Shown: positions 2,540 to 20,149 of the stretch, in pieces
Layout: the number at the start of each line of letters is the position of its first letter
How positions within the stretch are numbered: the first letter of the stretch is position 1
IMG/VR virus record: IMGVR_UViG_3300026522_000023
Location: 1-64,000 of that record
From: a virus
Lineage: Duplodnaviria > Caudoviricetes
Length of the DNA stretch: 64,000 bases
Direction: 5' to 3' (one strand)
Notes under the pieces: model-generated
What the model was told of the DNA's origin: nothing
Seen by the model: the letters and a program-made list of their open reading frames with translations, nothing else
The model's database searches: none
Program-made: the position numbers and the translations under genes

Positions 2540-5500
2540 ATGTCTAATTAGATTACAAATTATGGCGTAAAAGACATAAAAACTCTTGAAGGTATTGAAG
2601 CCATTAGACTTAGACCAGGTATGTATATTGGTTCTATTGGGCCTGATGGAGTTAGACATATTACGCTCGAAATTATTTCTAATGCTGTTGATGAATACTT
2701 AAATGGATATTGTACTGAATGTAATATTCAAGTTACAAATGATAATAATATTACTATTTCTGATAATGGACGTGGCGTTCCCTTTGGAAAAGCTAAAGAT
2801 GGTAGTGAAACTTTAGTAAATATTTATACTAAGTTACATACTGGCGCAAAGTTTGACTCTAATGGTCGCACAGGATATAACACTTCTGGTGGTATGAATG
2901 GTGTAGGTGCGAAAGCTACAAATGCGTTATCAGAATCTTTTACTGTTACTTCAATTAGAGATAATAAAGTAGCATATGCTTCTTTTAAAGAAGGTAAGTT
3001 ACTTAAATATGAAGTAACTAATGATATTAATAAATATAATTTTAAAACTGGAACTATTGTAAGTTTTATTCCTGATTCAAAAATCTTTAAAGAAGGAATT
3101 GATTTAGACTATACTGCTTTAAAGAAACAAATTCAAGAATTAGCTTATCTATCTCCTGGATTAAAATTTACATTAAAATACAAAGATAAAGAAGAAGAAA
3201 TTATTCAATCTAATAATGGTATTCTTGACTATATTAAAGATTTAAATAATAATAAAAATACTTTAACTTCTGTATTTTACACTGAAAATATTGAAGATAG
3301 AATTGGTGTTAAGATTGCTTTACAATATAATGATACTTATATTGATACTTATAAGCTTTATACTAATTCTATTCCAAATAGTGGCGGCACTCATTTAACT
3401 GGATTTAGAACTGCTTTAACAACTTCTATCAATGATTATGCTCGTGAAAAAAATCTTTTGAAAGAAAAAGATAGCAATATTACAGGCGAAGAATTAAAGG
3501 AAGGTTTAACTTTAGTTCTTTCTTTTATTATGCCTGATCCAGTATTTTCTGGACAAACTAAAGATGTTTTATCCAGCAGCGAAGCAAGAACTATTGTTCA
3601 AAGATTGGTTTCTAAAGATTTAAAGACTTGGTTAGAAGGCAATCCAAAAGACGCAAAAGCAATTGTAGATAAAGCATTATTGGCACGCGCTGCTCGTGAA
3701 AAGGCAAAGAAAGCAAAAGAAACAGTGCGTAAAGTCGATAATAAACGTCGAGTAGTAATGCCAGATGTTCTAGCAGATGCTTCTTCTAAAGAACGTTATA
3801 AATGTGAAGTTTTCCTTGTAGAAGGTAAATCTGCTGCAGGTTCGACAAAAGAAGCACGAAATCGTTCTACTCAAGCAGTATTCCAATTACGCGGTAAGAT
3901 TTTGAATGTTTTAAAAGCTGATTTGCATAAAGCATTACAGAATAAAGAAATTAGTGGAATGATTGATGCTTTTGGACTTGAAGTAAAAGATGGAAAAGTT
4001 ATTTTAGATGAATCTAAATTACGATATGGCAAGATTATTATCACCGCTGATGCAGACGTCAGTAAAACGGCGTATGAAAGACTTTTCGCCTAATCAGGCG
4101 GGTAAAAATTTTTGGACAAATCATATTTATGGGACCCATACGGCTCTCATATAAATATGAAAGAGAAGAAAATTTTTGCTAACGGGGAATCCTAAACTTA
4201 AAATAGCATGGAAATCCCGTGGGAAACAAATATTTATCCATTCTCTTTTAGTAAACATAAAGGAGAATAAAAATGATAGGAATTTATAAAATTACTGAAA
4301 AAGAAAATCCTACAATGTTCTATGTAGGAAAGTCAAATGATATAGAGAGAAGATTTAAAGAGCATATTCAAAAATCTTATGCTCAATCAAGAATCCCTTT
4401 TGATGATTATATTAGCGAAAAAGGAAAAGATGCTTTTACATATGAAGTATTAGAAGAGTGTTCTTTGGAAGAATTAAATCTTAAAGAAAAATATTGGATA
4501 GATAAACTTGAAGCAACTAAATCTGGCAATAAATTTGATGGCGGATTGACAGATGTTGTTGGGTCTAATAACCCAAAAGCAAAATTAACTGAACAAGATG
4601 TCATTGAAATTAGAAAAGCTTATAATAATCATCAAAAACAAAAAGATGTTTATGAAAAATATAAAGATATTATTTCTTTTGGTTATTTTCAAAGTCTGTG
4701 GCAAGGGCGCTCATGGGCACATATAATGCCAGAGGTGTTTACAAAAGAAAATAAAGAATACTATATTTTTCAAAATAGTAAGGGAGCAAATAGCGCAGCA
4801 GCCAGTTTTTCTAATGAAGAAATTCTTGAAATTAGAAAAAGATATGTTAAAGAAAGCGCAAAAGAAATTTATCAAGATTATCAAGGGCGTGTATCCTATC
4901 AGACGTTCCAAGAAATCTTATGGGGAAGAAGATATAATAATCTTCCTATATATAAAAAAAGAGAAAAGAAATGGATAAATATTTGAACCTGTATCGACTA
5001 TCCCCTAAGCCTTCTGGGCAGGGGAGTAGGGCAACTATTGATACGTTGCGAGGTTTTAGGAAACGAAGCCTCTCTCAAACCGAAATGGCCTCCTCTCTAA
5101 GTTAGAGAGTAAAAGATAGTCAGTGCTTATAGAAATATAAGAGTAACACGCGATGGCAGTCATATTCGTATTTTGTTCTTAACTTTTATTTGGAAATTCT
5201 GTCCAGAGTTAATTGAAAAAGGATATATTTATGCGGCAGTTCCTCCTCTTTATAAGGCTACTATTGGAACAAAAATTCAATATCTAAAAGATGATGACGC
5301 ATTAGAGAAATTCCGCAAAAATACAACTAAGAAATTTGAACTTGGTCGTATGAAAGGCCTTGGTGAAATGGATCCTCCTGAGATGGAAGAAACAGTTATG
5401 AATCCTGAGACAAGAACTTTAAAACAAATTACTATGGAAGATGCAACTGCTGTTGCTAAGACTTTTATGAGTTTAATGGGCGAAGCAGTAACTCCAAGAA

Positions 5501-9899: not shown

Positions 9900-9948
9900 T
9901 CTTTCTTCATAGATATTTAAATATTTATGAAGAAAGGTGGTAAATATT

Positions 9949-10527
9949 ATGCTAAAACCAGGATAGAAACAGAAGCCTTAGAGGTTAGGAACTAAAAGAA
10001 GATTAAATTTAAAAGATTAGACTTTTGGGAAATTAACTGTTATTGATGTTGGTCCTTTAGATAAAAATGGATGTTACACTTGGCTATGCTAGTGTGATTG
10101 TGGGAATTTAAAATATGTAAGAGGGTCTAGTTTAAAAAATGGTAATACCAAAAGTTGTGGATTATGTTCGCATGATTCATTTGGAATTTCAAAAATAAAA
10201 GAAATTTTAACTAATAATAATATACAATTTGTATAGGAAAAATCTTTTGATAATTTTTATTATGAAATAAGTAAAAAACCAATTAAATTTGATTTATATG
10301 TTAATGATACATATATTATTGAATTTGATGGAAAACAACATTTTACTTATGATTCAACTGGTTGGAATACTAAGGAAAATTATTTAAAAACTAAAGAACG
10401 AGATTAGTTACGAAATGAATATTGTAAAACAAATAATATTCCTTTAATTAGGATACCTTATACTATTATCAATTAGATTACTTTAGAAGATTTAGTTCCA
10501 TCAACGTCTATTTATTTGTTAAAATGA
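9949..10527 (+). CDS. Free-standing putative homing endonuclease: Zn-ribbon (CxCxCG..SCG) + Vsr/DUF559-like PD-(D/E)XK domain
   Basis: Visible only with TAG=Gln: FGKLTVI..WLCQCDCGN..TKSCG, FDLYV..IIEFDGKQH, YCKTNNIPLIRIPY. Confidence 0.85.
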
Positions 10528-10629: not shown

Positions 10630-10830
10630 ATGAAAACTAAAGAACTCAAGAATTTAGCTAAAAAGATTGCTTAGGCTGAATTAGTTGTTCAAACTAGCAC
10701 TGATAAAGATTAGATTCATAAAGCATAGAACTAGATTATGGAATACTCAAGTCATGTTGATAGTTTGGAAGATATTACCATTATTGATGAAATGGTTCAA
10801 GAAATTCTTAGCAAAACTCTTGACAAATAA
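10630..10830 (+). CDS. Hypothetical protein (66 aa)
   Basis: MKTKELKNLAKKIAQ..., several TAGs, ends at TAA. Confidence 0.7.
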
Positions 10831-10848
10831 AAAAATTTTTGATATAAT
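10820..10848 (+). promoter_or_regulatory. Strong SigA-type promoter with extended -10
   Basis: TTGACA-17-TATAAT with TG. Confidence 0.85.
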
Positions 10849-10923: not shown

Positions 10924-11190
10924 ATGATGAAGGAAAATTCTAAGAAAGTTTTGAATTATTTGAAGGAAGTCAATGGCCAGGACGTTACTGCTGCTGATGT
11001 TGCTGCTGCTCTCGGTCTTGAAAAGCGCTCTGTTGATGGTATTTTTACCTCTGCTATTCAGCGCAAGGGCCTTGGTGTTCGTACCGCTGCTGAAATCGAG
11101 ATTGAAGATGGAACTCACAAGTAGGTTAAGTTCCTTTCTCTTACCCCAGCCGGTATGAGTTTTGACCCTGATGCTCCCGACGCTGAGTAA
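10924..11190 (+). CDS. Small winged-helix DNA-binding protein
   Basis: KVLNYLK..VTAADVAAALGLEKRSV..; TAG 11122 read through to LTPAG; AAGGAG RBS. Confidence 0.8.
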
Positions 11191-11202
11191 TTAAGATATA
11201 TT

Positions 11203-11236
11203 AAGGGGTAGATTTATTAATAATCTACCCCTTTTA
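11203..11236 (+). terminator. Intrinsic terminator
   Basis: AAGGGGTAGATT-loop-AATCTACCCCTTTT. Confidence 0.8.
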
Positions 11237-11244
11237 ATTATAAT

Positions 11245-13475
11245 ATGCCTTATTTATTTTGTTTAATATCATTACTAATTGGCGGAGCGATTGTTTATTT
11301 TATTCTTTAGCCTAAAATAAAAAAAACTAAAGAATATGATTTAAACATTGAAAAATTAAATAATAATTTATACGCTGAAAAACAACAGCTAGAAAAAGTA
11401 ACTAAAGATTTACAAATTGAATTAGGGTCTTTACAAGGTAAAAGAGATGAAATTCAATCAAGTATTTCTGCTTTAGAATAGCAAGCAAAAGAATCGGCTG
11501 ATATTTTCTATCAAAAAAATATGGAATTAGCACAAACTAATTTAGATAAATCTTTAGAGAATGCTAGCAATTATTATAATGCTCAAGCAGAACAATACTA
11601 GAGTGATTATAAAAATATAATGGCGGATTGTGCGCAATCTATTTCTAATTTAATTGCTGAGAAAAAAATTGAATTAGATAAATTAGATAAAGCAATCCAA
11701 GAGCAATAGAAAAAAGTCGATGCTTCTGTTGAAGCAAGTAAGCGTGCCGAAGAAATTCGAGTAAAGAATGATTTTTATAGATTAGTTCTTCCAGTAGAGG
11801 ATTTAGATGAAATAAAAGAATTACATGAAGTAGGTAAGCATTTGCGCAATCCAGAGCCTCTTAATAAAGTTATTTGGAAATGTTATTATGAAAAACCTAC
11901 AACTGATTTAATTGGCCGTGTAATTGGATTAGGAGTCCATACTGGTATTTATAAAATTACAAATTTAAATAATAATATGTGCTATATAGGTTAGGCGGTC
12001 AATATTGGCCGGTGAAAAACTTTACCCAATTGCTGTTGGGGGTCTGCCGATTACCAAATTTTGGAAACGGCCGGCTAACGGGGAAAATTAGAAATTAATC
12101 AATCCCGTGGGAAACTTTGATTAATCCATCGTCTTTAAAAATTAAATATATATAGAAGGACGGTGGAAATAGCAATGATTACTAATATTAGCGATAAATT
12201 AAAAGTTTGTGGCATTTATAAAATTAATTATGATAATGGTAAAATATATATTGGATAGGCATTAAGCATTTGGTCTAGGGCCAATGAGCACAATTCTAAA
12301 AATATTCAGCCTTGTGATAAAGCATTAAAAAAGCATTAGGCGACGATAGAAATATTAGAAATTATTCAAGATATTTTATTATTAGATGACGTTGAAAGCA
12401 AATGGATTAATTATTATAATGCTACTGATAAAAACATAGGATATAATATTTTAAAAAATGGCAATGCTTCTGGGAAAAAAGGAGTAGATAATTGTAATGC
12501 TATTTTTAATTAGTCTCAAATTGATGAAATTGTAGATTTATTAATAAATAATACTAAATTATCTTATAAAGATATTGCTAATCAATATATGGTTAGTCAA
12601 AATACAATTTTAAATATTTCATAGGGATATACATATTTTAATTCTAATTTATCTTATCCTTTAAGAAAAAATAATCATGATTCAAATACAAAAGATAGTA
12701 TTTTAGACTATTTTAACAGCGAAAAAGATTTATTAGATTTAAAGGATGATTTATATTATAGATGGGATTTAAAAATTGAAAATGATTTAACTAAAAAGTA
12801 TAATGTTCCTTTAAAAATATTGAGACAAATTAATTAGGGAGATATTTTTAAAGATATTGGTAATTATAATTATCCTATTAGAAATAAAAATATTAGAAAT
12901 AATCAAAATTTTACTATTGATGATGTATTAAATATTCTATCAGATTTAAGAAATAGTAAAGAATCTATGACAAATATAGGTTTAAAATATAAAATTCATC
13001 GTAATACAGTTAGTAAAATTAATAAAGGAGAAGCATATATTATAAAAGATTATGATTATCCTGCTCGTTAATCAAAGAACCTGTATCGACTATCCCCCAG
13101 GTCTTCTGGGCGGGGGAGTAGGGCTGTTATTAGCACACAGTCGCATTTTAGGAAACGAAGTGCGTTAAATGCCGAAATGGTTTCCTGCCGAAACTCGGTT
13201 CAGCGATCGGCTGAACGGGAAACGGCAGTAAAAGATAGTCAGAATTATATTAAATAATTCGTAATATTGCTGACCGATGGAAATAGCATATTAAACGTGG
13301 AATAGGTGCGGAAACACCAACCCGCAATAAATTATATCCTGCTATGTTGGCTATTGGAGTAGAAAATTTCAGCTTTGAAGTAATTGAGGAATGTTCTCGC
13401 GATTAGTTAGATGCTAGAGAAGATTATTGGCAAGATTATTTTAAAGCAAAAGAATTTGGTTATAGTATTAAGTAA
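11245..13475 (+). CDS. Membrane-anchored coiled-coil protein with a C-terminal GIY-YIG nuclease domain, split by a group I intron (exons 11245-11999 and 13262-13475)
   Basis: N-terminal TM helix (YLFCLISLLIGGAIVYFIL), long heptad-rich region, then GIYKITN..CYIGQAV|NIADRWKQH..LYPAM..GVENFSFEVIEEC..REDYWQ..GYSIK; missed entirely by the ORF track. Confidence 0.88.
12000..13261 (+). ncRNA. Group I self-splicing intron in the TM-coiled-coil-GIY-YIG gene
   Basis: P1 CGGU|CAA..UUGGCCG with U.G; same conserved cores as the gyrB intron; terminal G 13261; join GT+T gives Val and restores YIGQAVNIADRW. Confidence 0.92.
12175..13071 (+). CDS. Intron-encoded GIY-YIG homing endonuclease with HTH repeats
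   Basis: CGIYKINYDNGKIYIGQA..RANEH..E..WI..GYN; several TAG=Gln; flanked by the CTTTGATTAA/TTAATCAAAG stem. Confidence 0.88.
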
Positions 13476-13486
13476 AGGATAATTTT

Positions 13487-13768
13487 ATGTATAGAGTTAT
13501 TGATAAACGTGGTACAGGTAAAACTGGTAGATTATTTTTAATTGCTAAAGATACTAATGCTACTATTGTATGTTCCAACCCTGCTATGATGTAGGATAAA
13601 GCATTAAGATATGGATTTAAAGATTTAAATTTTATGTCTTATGCTGATTTTGTTAATCATTACCAAGGAAGAAGTTCAAATCAAAAATTTTTAATTGATG
13701 AAATTGAGGTTTTAGTCCGTGGACTTGGTAATGTAATTGGTTATTCTTTTTCGGAGGATGATGATTAA
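13487..13768 (+). CDS. Miniature P-loop NTPase-like protein (93 aa)
   Basis: KRGTGKT Walker A-like and FLIDE Walker B-like motifs; one TAG. Confidence 0.7.
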
Positions 13769-14397
13769 TGTCAATTGTAAATAATGTAAAAATTTATGAT
13801 TTAGATGAATGCCTTGTTGCTGCTGGATATCCAATGCGCACCGTCGCAGAATAGCATCCAGTAACAGAACAAGATAAAAATAGAGGTCTAAATTTAGTTA
13901 AAGCTACTAAAGATGGTAATACTGCTCATAGTCAATTTTTAACTGGCATTAGAGTTAATTTTGATTTAACTTGTAGTAATAAAATGTGGGTTGAAGCAGA
14001 GCGTTATAGATTCTTAGAATTTGTAAGTTCTCAATCTACAATGCATCGTATCACTAAATTTGATTTAGACCAAGCATATAATGGATATGTTGATAAACGC
14101 ATTATTGAAATTATGAAAGAAAAAGTCAAAGAATATAATGCGTTTATCGAAGTGCGGGAAGCGGCGAAAGGACATCCTGAAATAGTCGCTGAATTGAATA
14201 GAATACTAAAAGAAATGTATTTAGAGATTCTTTATTCTAATCCTGCTGGATTTACTCTAACTGCTCGTATGACTACTAATTATAGATGTTTAAGAAATAT
14301 TTATAAACAAAGAAAAGATCATAGATTACCTGAGTGGCGAGAGTTTTGTAAATGGATTGAGACTTTACCTTATGCTGAAGAATTCTTGATTAATTAA
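13768..14397 (+). CDS. thyX: Flavin-dependent thymidylate synthase ThyX-like
   Basis: HSQFL, EAERYRF..VSSQSTMHR, TTNYRCLRNIYKQRKDHRLPEWREF; divergent ThyX motif. Confidence 0.7.
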
Positions 14398-17560: not shown

Positions 17561-20149
17561 ATATGTTGATTCGACTGCTATTATGTAGGTAATTGGTTGT
17601 GTTTTTAATACTCCTCAATTATTAGATTTAACTGATAAATATACTATAACTGATGAAGATTTTGTTGATCAATTTCATCGTATAATTTTTGGAGCTATTT
17701 ATAAGATTCATGAATTAGGAGCTGAAAAAATTACATTAGAAAATATTTCTGATTTTTTAGCAGATCGTCCTAAATATGAAGGAATTTATAAAGCTAACAA
17801 AGGTGAAGAATGGTTATTAAAAGTATCTGAAAATTCTAAAATTTTATCTTTTGATTATTATTATGGTCGTTTAAAAAAGATGTCATTACTTCGTGCTTAT
17901 GATAATTATGGTATTGATGTATCTTTTATATATGACCCTGATAATATCTTAGATGTTGAAAAAAAACAATTACAAGAAGAAAATTTAGATAACTCTACAT
18001 TGGAGCATATTGCGCAATTAGTAGATGATAGAATAGATGAAATCAAATATGAATATGTAAATAATGTAGAAGGTGTCGCTGTACAAGCAGGTACTGGAAT
18101 ATTTGATTTAATTGAATCTCTTAAAGAGCATCCAGAAGTAGGAAGCCCTCTATATGGTCCGTTAATTAATACAGTTACTCGTGGCGCCAGATTAAGAAAG
18201 TTTTATTTGCGATCTGCTGCTACTGGCGTTGGTAAAACTCGTTCTATGATTGCTGATGCTTGTAATATTGCTTGCAATAAAATATATAATGAAAATTTCG
18301 GTTGGATTAAAAATGGCGTTAGTGAACCAGTTCTTTATATCGCAACAGAACAAGATTTAAGTGAAATCCAAACAATGATGTTAGCTTTTCTTTCTAACGT
18401 GAATGAAGAGCATATTATAAATGGCTCATATGAAGGCGATGAAGAAGAAAGAATAATTCAAGCTGGCCAAATTATTGAAGACAGTCCTATTTACTTACGA
18501 GAATTACCTGATTTTTCATTACAAGATGTAGAAAATGAAATTAAAAAAGCAATTAGAGATTATGGAGTAAAGTATATATTCGACCCTATTTTAAAAGGGT
18601 GCGGGATAATGAAAAACTTTTCTCAGTTATCGCTGAGGGTCAATAATTAAAAATATAATTATTGGCTAACGGGGAACCCTAAACGAAAACGCATGGGAAT
18701 CCCGTGGGAAACTTTGAACGAAACTAGTCAAATAACTTCTGACTTCTTTCATATAAAAATGAAGGAAGTGATAAAATGGGAATTATTTATTGTTATACTA
18801 ATAAAATTAATGGTAAAAAATATATAGGTCAAACCATTAATCCACAATTGAGATATAACGCTCATAAAAGCAATTACCAAAATCCCAACCATACAGAATA
18901 CAATTCATTAATACATAAAGCATTTCGTAAATATGGATTTAATAATTTTACTTATGAAGTATTAGTAAAAGACATTGATGATATAAATGTATTAAATGAA
19001 TTAGAAATATACTATATTAAAAAGTTTAATTGTTAGACACCAAATGGTTATAATGTTGAGGCTGGCGGTAAAAATTGTACTAAGCCAAAAACATTAGAGC
19101 ATCGCAAAAAAGAGATTTGGGGTCAAGCAAAACTAACCGAAGAAGAAGTTATTGAACTACGAAAAGCATATCGAGATAAAAAAAGTCCGACTGAAATATA
19201 TAATAAAAAGTATAAAAATAGATTACATTATAATTCTTTTTTAAATATTTGGGTTGGAAAAAGATATAGCTTAATTATGCCAGAAGTATTTCAAAGTGGA
19301 CGCCATACAAAATTAACTGCTGAAACTGTAAAAGAAATAAGAAAAGATAGAGAGCAAACTAATCTTTCTTATGATAAATTAGCAGAAAAATATGGGGTAT
19401 CAAAAGGAACTATTGCTGATATAATTAAACGTAGGACTTGGAAAGATGTTTAAAGAACCTGTATCGACTATCCCCTAGGCCTTCTGGGCGGGGGAGTAGG
19501 GCTACTATTGATACGTAGTCGCATTTTAGGAAACGAAGTGCGTTAAATGCCGAAATGGTTTCCTGTTGAAATTCGGTTCAGCGATCGGCTGAACGGGAAA
19601 CGGCAGTAAGAGATAGTCAGCGTTCATAGAAATATGAAAGAAACGTGCCACGATTATATCCATACAAGTATGAAAATTTTAGAAGAAATTACTAAACGAA
19701 GTGGTGGAGTTAAATTGCGTGAAGATAATATTCTTTTTATGTTATCAACTCGATTAAAAGATATTTGTAATCAATATGGAGTATTTATTATGTCTGCTAC
19801 ATAGCTGAATGGTGATTATGTAGATTCTAAAACTCCTGATCAAAATCTGCTTCGTGGCGCAAAATCTATTGCGGATAAAATTGACTATGGTTCAATTTTA
19901 TTAAATGTTCAAGATGATGATTTAATTGCTCTAAAAGATATATTAAGTGCTAATTTATTTGATACTCCAACTATTAAAATGTCTGTTTATAAAAATAGAC
20001 GAGGTAGATATAAAGGAATAATTTTATGGTGTAAAGCAGATTTAGGTGTATGTAGAATTACTCCTATGTTCTGTACTACTTATAATTATGAACTAGTACC
20101 TATTGATGATATGAGAATTATGATTGATGAAGAAGAGAGTGCGTTCTAA
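17550..20149 (+). CDS. dnaB: DnaB-like replicative helicase, split by a group I intron (exons 17550-18580 and 19648-20149)
   Basis: GTG start; SAATGVGKT Walker A; splice restores Walker B YIF|HDYIH; SATQLN (TAG 19802), LRGAKSIADKID, YKNRRG. Confidence 0.92.
18581..19647 (+). ncRNA. Group I self-splicing intron in dnaB
   Basis: Exon ends in U (UAUU|C pairing with GGAUA); conserved cores; P7 GACTAT/ATAGTC; terminal G; frame restored. Confidence 0.9.
18776..19453 (+). CDS. Intron-encoded GIY-YIG homing endonuclease
   Basis: GIIYCYTNKINGKKYIGQT..RYNAH..ELEIYYI..NGYN; AKLTEEEVIELR repeats; TAG 19034 read through. Confidence 0.92.

What the first reader, a model, noticed from the sequence alone, without database searches (positions are those of the whole stretch)
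11245..13475. Hidden membrane-tethered nuclease: TM anchor + long coiled coil + GIY-YIG
Seen: invisible in the ORF track because of TAGs and an intron. The spliced product (~322 aa) has one N-terminal TM, ~150 aa of coiled coil and a GIY-YIG domain that keeps the Tyr/Arg/His/Glu positions. It has no homing-type DNA-binding tail and no SD-occluding hairpin. The layout parallels RNase Y and RmuC-like tethered nucleases but with a GIY-YIG head. Inference: a domesticated phage function such as cutting incoming DNA at the membrane (superinfection exclusion), degrading host DNA or anchoring replication. Intron occupancy suggests a conserved, important gene.
Basis: partly seen in the sequence, partly recalled or inferred. 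Interest (0 to 1): 0.8.

Follow-up and report, generated by a model that had tools for sequence, protein, structure and literature searches.

The report
Intron-split membrane-anchored phage GIY-YIG nuclease
A large gut phage that reads TAG as glutamine has a conserved core gene, split here by a mobile self-splicing-type intron, for a DNA-cutting enzyme held on the inner face of the cell membrane by a long helical stalk, a layout that recalls the bacterial SNIPE defence nuclease but arose independently and has an untested function.

Summary
With TAG read as Gln, exon 1 (11245-11999) and exon 2 (13262-13475) join into a 322-aa protein. Its coding sequence is 950/966 nt identical to an uninterrupted allele in a related phage.

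The 1262-nt insert carries its own GIY-YIG homing endonuclease. It has group I hallmarks and covarying helices, but no Rfam match.

The protein has four parts:
- an N-out/C-in membrane anchor (residues 3-21);
- a Pro-free helix (about 22-174);
- a conserved 55-aa mid domain;
- an I-TevI-like GIY-YIG domain (Z 15, rmsd 1.4 Å) with Tyr/Tyr/Arg/His/Glu invariant and no DNA-binding tail.

The fused architecture is the rule: 487 clusters at E<=1e-30, all 70 sampled with the anchor. The gene is a syntenic core gene, present in 45/45 loci found through a neighbouring gene.

It is not a SNIPE (DUF4041) or Uzume family member; the resemblance to SNIPE is in layout only. "Coiled coil" is plausible but only weakly supported.

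Function is inferred. It is a spatially confined DNA endonuclease, most likely cutting DNA that enters at the membrane (superinfection exclusion). Host-DNA breakdown or membrane-linked DNA processing are live rivals.

The parts
10820..10848 (+). Consensus sigma-70-type promoter (TTGACA-17-TATAAT with TG) upstream of the 88-aa gene; probable source of the transcript that reaches the nuclease gene
   Evidence: 12/12 match, the best in the region. Its function is inferred.
10924..11190 (+). p88: small, G+C-rich, winged-helix-like protein that always lies directly upstream of the nuclease gene
   Evidence: Present upstream in every syntenic locus, at 81-93% identity where the nuclease is 45-57%. 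Only sub-threshold Z-alpha/MarR hits.
11203..11233 (+). 12-bp G+C-clamped hairpin followed by a T-run (terminator-like), ending 11 nt before the start codon; no Shine-Dalgarno sequence follows
   Evidence: The hairpin-T-run-ATG arrangement without SD recurs in more than 20 diverse relatives.
11245..11999 (+). Exon 1: residues 1-251 plus 2 nt of codon 252; 5 in-frame TAG (Gln) codons
11251..11307 (+). Membrane anchor, residues 3-21; predicted N-out / C-in
   Evidence: Hydropathy 2.47, 0 K/R before and 4 after; the same pattern in 70/70 family members.
11308..11766 (+). Long Pro-free alpha-helical stalk, residues 22-174; fast-evolving, with length varying across the family
   Evidence: AF2 helix 2-174 at pLDDT 93-98. 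It matches long coiled-coil chains only generically. Identity is 22-47% between clades against 90% for the nuclease. Longer stalks occur in P0131, P0159 and P0213.
11767..11940 (+). Conserved mid domain, residues 175-232 (strand plus two helices; motif EPLNKVIWKxYYEKPxTDLIGRV)
   Evidence: No Pfam family. Covered together with the nuclease domain by the T4 EndoII alignment (Z 8.3, model 177-322).
11941..11999 (+). First part of the GIY-YIG domain (GIY and YIG motifs, Y236, Y247)
   Evidence: TIGR01453 positions 2-24 and phrog_314/7168.
12000..13261 (+). Group I-type intron, 1262 nt, in codon 252 (phase 2); its first 8 nt (CAATATTG) nearly repeat the first 8 nt of exon 2 (TAATATTG) and are complementary to it
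   Evidence: Boundaries come from the uninterrupted allele plus the rules that the exon ends in U and the intron ends in G. There are covarying helices and a long-range pair crossing P7. No Rfam match.
12175..13071 (+). Intron-encoded GIY-YIG homing endonuclease (298 aa, 5 in-frame TAGs) with a helix-turn-helix-type tail
   Evidence: PF01541 E 2.5e-8; phrog_7168 E 3e-18 over residues 13-287; TIGR01453.
13262..13475 (+). Exon 2: last nt of codon 252 to residue 322 plus TAA; carries R257, H261 and E305; 2 in-frame TAGs
   Evidence: 99% identical to residues 253-322 of P0003. TIGR01453 positions 21-87, E 3e-10.

Best explanation
Shown:
- This is a functional, intron-interrupted gene of a TAG=Gln phage.
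- Removing the 1262-nt group I-type intron restores a 322-aa protein.
- The protein has a single N-terminal membrane anchor with only 2 residues outside. The rest is predicted to lie in the cytoplasm: a helical stalk of about 150 residues, a conserved 55-aa domain, and an I-TevI-like GIY-YIG endonuclease domain with all principal catalytic residues and no sequence-reading tail.
- It is a core, positionally fixed gene of a clade of roughly 100-200-kb phages.

Inferred:
- It is an active DNA endonuclease of low sequence specificity. Its reach is limited by the tether to DNA at the inner face of the membrane.
- The most likely substrate is DNA that enters the already infected cell through the membrane, that is, superinfecting phage or other incoming DNA. 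This is the logic shown for bacterial SNIPE.
- Its dose is kept low, because it sits behind a terminator-like hairpin and lacks a Shine-Dalgarno sequence.

Rough odds:
- Anatomy and splicing: about 0.9.
- Active tethered DNA nuclease: about 0.7.
- Exclusion of incoming DNA as the target: about 0.3-0.35.
For: Gene and splice:
- The spliced CDS is 950/966 nt identical to the uninterrupted allele.
- Intron-less 322-aa homologues exist.
- The 5' exon ends in U opposite G of a 4-nt guide (CGGU/GCCG), and the intron ends in G.
- P7 GACUA/UAGUC lies next to AAGAUA.
- The long-range pair A[X]ACU/GGU[X']U covaries as A:U 9, C:G 6, G:C 3 in 18 sequences.
- At least 6 further helices covary.
- ORF-less copies of the intron exist in relatives (L106, L107).

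Protein:
- PF01541 E 8e-11.
- I-TevI match: Foldseek E 3e-6, TM 0.81; Z 15.0, rmsd 1.4 over 88 residues.
- Invariant Y236, Y247, R257, H261, E305.
- TM anchor with positive-inside pattern in 70/70 members.
- AF2 mean pLDDT 92.

Conservation:
- 487 clusters at E<=1e-30.
- 45/45 loci retrieved through neighbour p310 carry the gene after p88.
- The nuclease is 90% conserved and the stalk 22-47%. This gradient (nuclease most conserved, N-terminal region least) is the one reported for SNIPE (PMC13190303, section 9).

SNIPE precedent:
- SNIPE has TM + elongated middle + C-terminal GIY-YIG.
- The delta-TM form is toxic, and SNIPE cleaves DNA during injection only (PMC13190303).

Other:
- The many mobile introns and HEGs in these genomes imply frequent co-infection, so exclusion would pay.
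- Low-dose signals.
Against: - No experiment bears on activity, localisation or substrate.
- Superinfection-exclusion genes are usually accessory and variable. This gene is core and sits inside the replication/recombination block (topoisomerase II, ligase, Sak4-like, helicase), which fits a DNA-metabolism role at least as well.
- There is no ectodomain or recognisable partner-binding module that could find an injection site.
- The SNIPE DNA/tape-measure-binding DUF4041 is absent.
- The I-TevI Asn90 position is Ser in this clade.
- Heptad periodicity is weak.
- Splicing is inferred, and Rfam's group I model does not match.
Confidence: 0.4

Rival explanations
1. Host-takeover nuclease. Like T4 endonuclease II (DenA, a GIY-YIG enzyme), it nicks or cuts host DNA early in infection to shut the host down and feed nucleotides to phage replication. 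The tether places it where the host nucleoid contacts the membrane, or keeps it from phage DNA.
For: - The structural alignment to T4 EndoII covers both the mid domain and the nuclease domain (Z 8.3, rmsd 3.2, 105 residues, model 177-322).
- It is a core gene within the DNA-metabolism block.
- A divergent ThyX-like gene lies two genes downstream (sub-threshold Thy1 hit E 0.016). This could hint at altered nucleotide chemistry and so at self/non-self discrimination.
Against: - Z 8.3 is in the range of generic GIY-YIG similarity. UvrC scores 7.9, and I-TevI is far closer at 15.
- EndoII is soluble, and nothing explains why a host-DNA nuclease should be tethered.
- No evidence of DNA modification was obtained.
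- The low-expression signals fit poorly with bulk DNA degradation.
Confidence: 0.2
2. Membrane-linked processing of the phage's own DNA. It would be a tethered structure-specific or nicking endonuclease serving replication, recombination or concatemer handling at a membrane-attached replication site. This is analogous in layout to phi29 p16.7 (TM + coiled coil + DNA-binding head) and to RmuC-type tethered nucleases; both comparisons come from general knowledge and were not tested here.
For: - Strict synteny with topoisomerase II, ligase, Sak4-like annealase and helicase genes, and core status.
- It always follows the ultra-conserved winged-helix-like p88.
- The mid domain and nuclease are under strong purifying selection.
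Against: - No homology to any known resolvase or replication organiser.
- The closest relatives of the nuclease head are double-strand-cutting homing enzymes.
- Stalk length varies by about 100 residues across the family, which is odd for a fixed replication assembly.
Confidence: 0.2
3. The gene is dead in this genome. The insertion is not spliced, or is spliced inefficiently, so only a 256-aa anchor-plus-stalk protein lacking Arg/His/Glu is made.
For: - Splicing was not observed.
- No Rfam group I match, even for ORF-less copies.
- Exon 1 reads on for only 2 further codons after the shared Asn-Ile codons, into a stop (AVNIGR*).
Against: - Exon 2 is 99% identical in protein to intact alleles and in frame after exact removal.
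- The same insertion persists in lineages that differ by more than 50% in exon 1 (L043; P0020 and P0125).
- The flanking RNA shows compensatory changes, including one long-range pair across the ORF.
- Sibling introns sit in topoisomerase and helicase genes that the phage cannot do without.
Confidence: 0.05
4. It is still a selfish homing endonuclease, free-standing and with an unusual N-terminus.
For: The nuclease head is most similar to I-TevI-type enzymes.
Against: - No DNA-binding tail.
- Fixed position and universal presence in the clade, unlike the patchy HNH gene next to the ligase.
- A membrane anchor would keep it from most target DNA.
- It is itself the target of a homing intron.
Confidence: 0.03

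Closest known systems
SNIPE (DUF4041 membrane-bound nuclease; Nature 2026, PMC13190303)
   Same: - N-terminal single-pass anchor with a very short outside part.
- Elongated cytoplasmic middle region.
- C-terminal nuclease of the GIY-YIG superfamily.
- Nuclease most conserved and N-terminal part least.
- The logic of self/non-self discrimination by location rather than by sequence.
   Different: - No DUF4041: 0/69 members at E<=0.05. Profile-profile comparison with six DUF4041 proteins gave only a 35-column coiled-coil match, probability 32%.
- The nuclease belongs to the I-TevI-like PF01541 branch, not the T5orf172-like branch seen in the DUF4041 proteins.
- It is encoded by a lytic-type phage as a core gene, not by bacterial defence loci.
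- Its function is untested.
I-TevI catalytic domain (T4 td intron homing endonuclease; PDB 1LN0/1MK0)
   Same: The best structural and sequence match of the nuclease head: 30-32% identity, Z 15.0, rmsd 1.4 Å, profile E 2e-11. The Tyr, Tyr, Arg, His and Glu positions are shared.
   Different: - I-TevI has a C-terminal linker, zinc finger and helix-turn-helix that select the target. Here the extra parts are N-terminal (anchor, stalk, mid domain) and nothing follows the catalytic domain.
- The Asn90 position is Ser.
- The gene is not mobile.
T4 endonuclease II (DenA; PDB 2WSH)
   Same: Phage-encoded GIY-YIG enzyme without a homing tail. The alignment extends into the region N-terminal to the core (model 177-322).
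   Different: - EndoII is a soluble enzyme of about 136 aa.
- Similarity is modest (Z 8.3, 15% identity).
- No anchor or stalk.
Uzume UzuA (PADLOC PDLC03973; phrog_26160)
   Same: C-terminal GIY-YIG domain at the very end of a protein of about 280-300 aa. The profile matches residues 230-319 at E 1e-6.
   Different: UzuA homologues fetched here have a globular N-terminal domain with no hydrophobic anchor and no long helix. The profile's N-terminal 180 positions do not match.
Phage group I introns with GIY-YIG endonucleases (T4 td / I-TevI type)
   Same: - ORF in a peripheral loop between the P6 region and P7.
- U·G at the 5' splice site and terminal G.
- J8/7-P7 sequence AAGAUAGUC.
- Insertion in a sequence that encodes a catalytic motif.
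   Different: - No match to Rfam RF00028, even for ORF-less copies.
- Two covarying hairpins lie between the long-range P3-like strand and the P4-like helix, so the canonical helix numbering is not settled.
- The host gene is itself a GIY-YIG nuclease.

Membership tests
GIY-YIG nuclease superfamily (Pfam PF01541, I-TevI-like) | Profile match over the gathering threshold | tested here: met
   42.5 bits against a cut-off of 22.6 on P0003 (97% identical to the spliced product), and 69/69 family members match. The two exons separately match profile positions 2-24 and 21-87 of TIGR01453.
GIY-YIG nuclease superfamily (Pfam PF01541, I-TevI-like) | Catalytic Tyr (GIY), Tyr (YIG), Arg27, His31 and Glu75 equivalents | tested here: met
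   Y236, Y247, R257, H261 and E305 are invariant in 69 sequences and aligned to I-TevI.
GIY-YIG nuclease superfamily (Pfam PF01541, I-TevI-like) | Conserved Asn (I-TevI N90) | tested here: not met
   The aligned position is Ser320 (GYSIK) in this clade. More distant members keep Asn (GYNM/GYNE). The effect on activity is unknown.
GIY-YIG nuclease superfamily (Pfam PF01541, I-TevI-like) | alpha/beta fold of the catalytic domain | tested here: met
   The AF2 model against 1LN0 gives Z 15.0, rmsd 1.4 Å over 88 residues, and Foldseek TM 0.81.
Homing endonuclease (mobile I-TevI-type gene) | Separate DNA-binding domain that reads a long target | tested here: not met
   The protein ends one residue after the stretch aligned to I-TevI 2-91. 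The intron's own endonuclease does have such a tail (phrog_7168 over residues 13-287).
Homing endonuclease (mobile I-TevI-type gene) | Patchy presence/absence among close relatives | tested here: not met
   Present at the same position in 45/45 loci retrieved through the neighbouring gene p310.
SNIPE / DUF4041 membrane-bound defence nucleases | DUF4041 (PF13250) middle domain | tested here: not met
   0/69 members at E<=0.05. hhalign of the family profile against six DUF4041 proteins from Bacillota genomes gave probability 32%, 35 coiled-coil columns only.
SNIPE / DUF4041 membrane-bound defence nucleases | N-terminal membrane anchor with the cytoplasmic nuclease at the C-terminus | tested here: met
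   Hydropathy and positive-inside pattern in 70/70 members. This is a prediction only, with no topology experiment.
SNIPE / DUF4041 membrane-bound defence nucleases | Cleaves DNA during injection; protects against phage | not testable with these tools
   Needs plaque, transformation and imaging assays.
Uzume (UzuA) | Full-length match to the UzuA profile, including its N-terminal domain | tested here: not met
   Only profile positions 181-275 of 278 match (E 1e-6). UzuA homologues have a globular N-terminus without an anchor.
Group I intron | Exact, in-frame restoration of the host gene on removal | tested here: met
   The joined exons are 950/966 nt identical to an uninterrupted allele, with no indel.
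Group I intron | 5' exon ends in U paired to G of an internal guide (P1); intron ends in G; guide-adjacent bases pair with the 3' exon (P10) | tested here: met
   Read directly from the sequence:
- CGGU(11996-11999) pairs with GCCG(12008-12011), and G13261 is the last intron base.
- CAAUAUUG(12000-12007) is complementary to UAAUAUUG(13262-13269).
- The sibling topoisomerase introns use UGGU/GCCA and ACGU/GCGU at the same place (read from sequence).
Group I intron | Conserved core with a P3-P7-type pseudoknot supported by covariation | tested here: met
   The long-range pair across the ORF, which crosses GACUA/UAGUC, covaries as A:U 9, C:G 6, G:C 3 in 18 distinct sequences, with one mismatch elsewhere in the helix. 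Further covarying helices are listed. The helix names are my assignment.
Group I intron | Match to the Rfam group I model (RF00028) | tested here: not met
   No hit at gathering or at E<=10 on the window, nor at E<=1 on ORF-less relatives.
Group I intron | GTP-dependent self-splicing | not testable with these tools
   Needs in vitro transcription and splicing, or cDNA.

The most novel reading that the evidence does not exclude
A clade of large TAG-recoded gut phages carries, as a core gene, an independently evolved counterpart of the bacterial SNIPE nuclease. A homing-endonuclease-type GIY-YIG head was re-used on a membrane anchor and stalk to destroy DNA that enters an already infected cell. 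This would be a nuclease-based superinfection exclusion that needs no sequence or modification cue. In this genome the gene is itself parasitised by an intron carrying a GIY-YIG homing endonuclease.
Probability: 0.3. Interest if true: 0.75.

Novelty: new variant of a known kind. Interest (0 to 1): 0.58.

Why it matters
- Membrane-confined nucleases have only just been shown to give sequence-independent immunity (SNIPE, 2026). A second, unrelated build of the same layout, this time owned by phages and fixed as a core gene, would suggest that 'cut whatever DNA crosses the membrane' is a recurrent solution. It would also give a candidate mechanism for phage-phage exclusion in the gut.
- Standard pipelines miss or truncate the gene because of TAG recoding and the intron. 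The one homologue annotated in GenBank phages is a 144-aa 'hypothetical protein'. The family is therefore effectively unannotated.
- The locus shows a homing intron whose endonuclease and whose target gene both belong to the GIY-YIG family.
- The intron family is one that Rfam's model does not detect.

Tried and rejected
1. Rfam search for the intron: nothing at gathering, nothing relevant at E<=10 on 11900-13400, and nothing for the ORF-less relatives L106/L107. The intron call rests on comparative evidence instead.
2. Co-conversion idea: exon 2 of the intron-bearing relative L043 is 93% identical to the window while exon 1 is 45%. I suspected a co-converted exon. Segment-wise comparison showed that exon 2 is simply very conserved (window against intron-less L007 is 90%; L043 against its own clade is 96%), so I rejected the idea.
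3. SNIPE membership: rejected by Pfam and hhalign.
4. Uzume membership: rejected because the UzuA N-terminus is globular.
5. Chromosomal or defence-island homologues: full-length hits in 'genome contigs' lie on 120-176-kb MAG contigs with the same phage synteny, so they are mis-binned phage genomes. No bacterial version was found in that scan.
6. P3 as GGGG/CCCC next to P7: rejected, because CCCC[C/U] covaries with a local [G/A]GGGG, which makes a hairpin.
7. Heptad periodicity test: weak.
Contigs of P0020, P0068, P0125 and P0267 could therefore not be fetched, and the second insertion site rests on truncated protein predictions only.
9. The spliced protein itself has no reference. Searches and the fold used the single exons or the 97%-identical intron-less homologue P0003. 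The joined sequence was used only inside scripts.
10. GenBank phage search by DNA: no match. By protein: only domain-level hits plus phAss-1.
Full report
**1. What is in the sequence**

The window comes from a phage that reads TAG as a sense codon. With TAG as stop, ORFs of 100 aa or more cover 43% of the 64 kb; with TAG read through they cover 90%. The window is the first half of a 125,780-nt contig without tRNA genes. Close relatives in IMG/VR are about 100-200 kb.

Under TAG=Gln, an ORF runs from 11245 to 12015 (256 aa). It is followed by a 298-302-aa ORF (12163/12175-13071) and a short ORF that ends at 13475. The region 12000-12170 and 13072-13260 is non-coding and has 37-47% G+C, against 17-30% around it.

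**2. The split gene is real and the join is exact**

- A database search with exon 1 returned thousands of proteins. Nearly all of the best ones are 322 aa and carry PF01541.
- P0003 matches exon 1 over residues 1-255 (97%) and exon 2 over 253-322 (99%).
- An uninterrupted allele lies at L001:4001-4966 in a 201-kb viral contig with identical gene order. Joining 11245-11999 to 13262-13475 gives 969 nt that are 950/966 identical to it, without any indel.
- The intron therefore occupies 12000-13261 (1262 nt), inside codon 252 (GT|T, Val). This lies between the YIG motif and the catalytic Arg.
- The first 8 intron bases (CAATATTG) nearly repeat the first 8 bases of exon 2 (TAATATTG). Protein alignments therefore seem to place the break at residue 254/255, and exon 1 reads on as ...AVNIGR*.
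- The gene has seven in-frame TAGs (residues 22, 79, 119, 155, 250, 260, 300). At residue 250, 68/69 homologues have Gln, and relatives have CAA where the window has TAG.

**3. The insert behaves as a mobile group I-type intron**

- *Encoded protein.* It encodes a GIY-YIG homing endonuclease with a helix-turn-helix-type tail (PF01541 E 2.5e-8; phrog_7168 E 3e-18).
- *Splice-site features, read directly from the sequence.* The 5' exon ends in U, opposite G of a 4-nt guide (CGGU/GCCG). The loop between them is complementary to the start of exon 2, which is P10-like. The last intron base is G. GACUA (about 13087) and AAGAUAGUC (about 13232) look like P7 and J8/7.
- *Siblings.* Two sibling introns lie in the window, in the topoisomerase gene (about 4.1-5.1 kb) and in the gene that an earlier first-stage note calls dnaB, which I did not annotate (about 18.65-19.64 kb). 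The latter shares a 92% identical 3' core.
- *Wider family.* A 21-nt core motif found 25 more loci in viral contigs. They include ORF-less copies of 282 nt and similar size in topoisomerase genes (L106, L107).
- *Guide changes with the host exon.* In those sibling copies the exon's last four bases and the guide change together: UGGU/GCCA and ACGU/GCGU.
- *Covariation.* In 18 distinct sequences at least six helices show compensatory changes. A 5-bp long-range helix joins the 5' part to the segment just before the P8-like hairpin, across the ORF and crossing P7. Its central pair covaries perfectly: A:U 9, C:G 6, G:C 3.
- *Same site in other lineages.* The same insertion site is occupied in L043/L125 (exon 1 only 45% identical), in L187, and in proteins P0020 and P0125, which end ...KIGR. 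P0068 and P0267 break at other nearby points.
- *Against.* No Rfam family matches, even for the ORF-less copies. My helix numbering is provisional, and splicing itself was not observed.

**4. Anatomy of the protein**

- *Residues 3-21.* These form a hydrophobic segment (mean hydropathy 2.47). No K/R precedes it and four lie in the next 12 residues. All 70 family members examined show this pattern (median start at residue 3; 0.06 K/R before, 3.2 after). The prediction is an N-out/C-in anchor with everything else in the cytoplasm.
- *Residues 2-174.* AlphaFold2 with a 69-sequence alignment (mean pLDDT 92.1) gives one helix, then a short strand and two helices (184-197, 204-226), then the GIY-YIG core.
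- *The stalk.* It has no proline and aligns only generically to long coiled-coil chains and to ATP synthase subunit b. Heptad periodicity is weak. I therefore call it a helical stalk that is probably a coiled coil. Its sequence evolves fast (22-47% identity between clades) and its length varies (proteins of 302-413 aa).
- *The mid domain (175-232).* It is 65% conserved between clades and matches no Pfam family.
- *The nuclease head (77-93% conserved).* It is closest to the I-TevI catalytic domain (profile E 2e-11; Foldseek E 3e-6; Z 15.0, rmsd 1.4 Å). Y236, Y247, R257, H261 and E305 are invariant. The Asn90 position is Ser.
- *C-terminus.* The protein ends right after the domain, so it has no target-reading tail.

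**5. Distribution and context**

- HMMER against 1.84 billion representatives found 487 clusters at E<=1e-30. Most are full-length matches of 300-340 aa. The fused architecture is therefore the norm.
- Gene order is conserved down to 37% identity: topoisomerase II - (ligase) - p66 - p88 - this gene - (p93) - (p209) - p120 - p310 - Sak4-like.
- As an unbiased test I retrieved loci through p310. All 45 loci with enough upstream sequence carry the gene after p88, and one of them is split by an intron. It is thus a core gene and not a patchy moron.
- Full-length hits in bacterial 'genomes' lie on 120-176-kb MAG contigs with the same synteny. These are phage genomes binned with Clostridia, Bacilli or Mollicutes.
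- Among GenBank phages only phAss-1, of the 'code 15 clade', has a partial homologue, annotated as hypothetical.

**6. Expression signals**

- A perfect sigma-70-type promoter (10820-10848) precedes p88.
- A 12-bp hairpin with a T-run (11203-11233) follows p88 and ends 11 nt before the ATG.
- The ATG has no Shine-Dalgarno sequence, unlike its neighbours.
- This hairpin-T-run-ATG arrangement recurs in more than 20 diverse relatives.
- I infer expression by terminator read-through and inefficient initiation, that is, a low dose. That would suit a nuclease.

**7. Comparison with known systems**

- *SNIPE* (PMC13190303) is an inner-membrane protein with a short periplasmic N-terminus, a cytoplasmic DUF4041 and a C-terminal GIY-YIG nuclease. 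Without its anchor it is toxic, and it cuts phage DNA only during injection. The layout and the conservation gradient are the same here. The family is not: DUF4041 is absent in 69/69 members, and a profile-profile comparison with six DUF4041 proteins that I fetched from Bacillota genomes gave only a 35-column coiled-coil match at probability 32%.
- *UzuA* (Uzume) shares only the nuclease domain. Its N-terminus is globular.
- *T4 EndoII* aligns over 177-322 at Z 8.3. This is a weak but relevant lead for a host-DNA role.

**8. Most likely mechanism**

Shown: an intact GIY-YIG active site on a membrane anchor and stalk, under strong purifying selection, fixed in the replication block of the genome.

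Inferred: an endonuclease of low sequence specificity whose access to DNA is set by the tether. I rank the possible targets as follows.
- DNA entering the infected cell: about 0.3-0.35.
- Host DNA: about 0.2.
- The phage's own DNA at a membrane-bound replication or recombination site: about 0.2.

Points against it: core status, the position among replication genes, and the lack of any module that could find an injection site.

**9. Verdict**

The thing itself is a new, unannotated, phage-borne variant of the membrane-tethered nuclease theme, together with an intron family that current RNA models miss.

Noticed in passing
window 10924-11190 (with promoter 10820-10848): p88 is a G+C-rich (40-47% against about 25%) 88-aa winged-helix-like protein behind a perfect consensus promoter. 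It is far more conserved (81-93% identity) than every neighbouring gene (45-80%) and always lies directly upstream of the nuclease gene. Its function is unknown; it has only sub-threshold Z-alpha and MarR hits.
   Followed up: partly
window 11203-11247; same place in L001-L060: A terminator-like hairpin plus T-run ends 5-15 nt before the nuclease start codon, and there is no Shine-Dalgarno sequence. This arrangement is conserved in more than 20 diverse relatives (only L059 has GAGGAG). It may set a low, read-through-dependent dose.
   Followed up: partly
window about 4094-5145 and about 18650-19640; L106:5766-6140, L107:671-952: Sibling introns of the same family lie in the topoisomerase II (TOPRIM) gene and the dnaB-type helicase gene (name taken from an earlier first-stage note). 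ORF-less copies of about 280 nt exist in relatives. None is found by Rfam. Part of the core resembles sequences next to homing endonuclease genes in Enterococcus phages EF1, EF5 and VRE9_3.
   Followed up: partly
proteins P0068 (269 aa) and P0267 (289 aa), relatives of the gene: These homologues break off after ...ERWKQ and ...QAVKLA and continue with unrelated residues. This suggests further, different insertions a few codons from this intron site.
   Followed up: no
window 9937-10527: The HNH endonuclease gene after the ligase is present in only some close relatives (L005, L008, L036, L131) and absent from others with otherwise identical gene order. It is a free-standing mobile endonuclease.
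   Followed up: partly
window 13768-14397: The 209-aa protein (phrog_6721, unknown function) gives a sub-threshold ThyX (PF02511) match over most of its length (E 0.016). It is possibly a divergent flavin-dependent pyrimidine-modifying enzyme, and would matter if phage DNA is modified.
   Followed up: no
window 11975-11999 and 13262-13275 against L001:4735-4775: 7 of the 16 nucleotide differences between the spliced gene and the 98%-identical intron-less allele fall within about 25 nt of the insertion site (for example AATATT against AATTTA). This is as expected if the empty site and the occupied site differ at the endonuclease's target.
   Followed up: no
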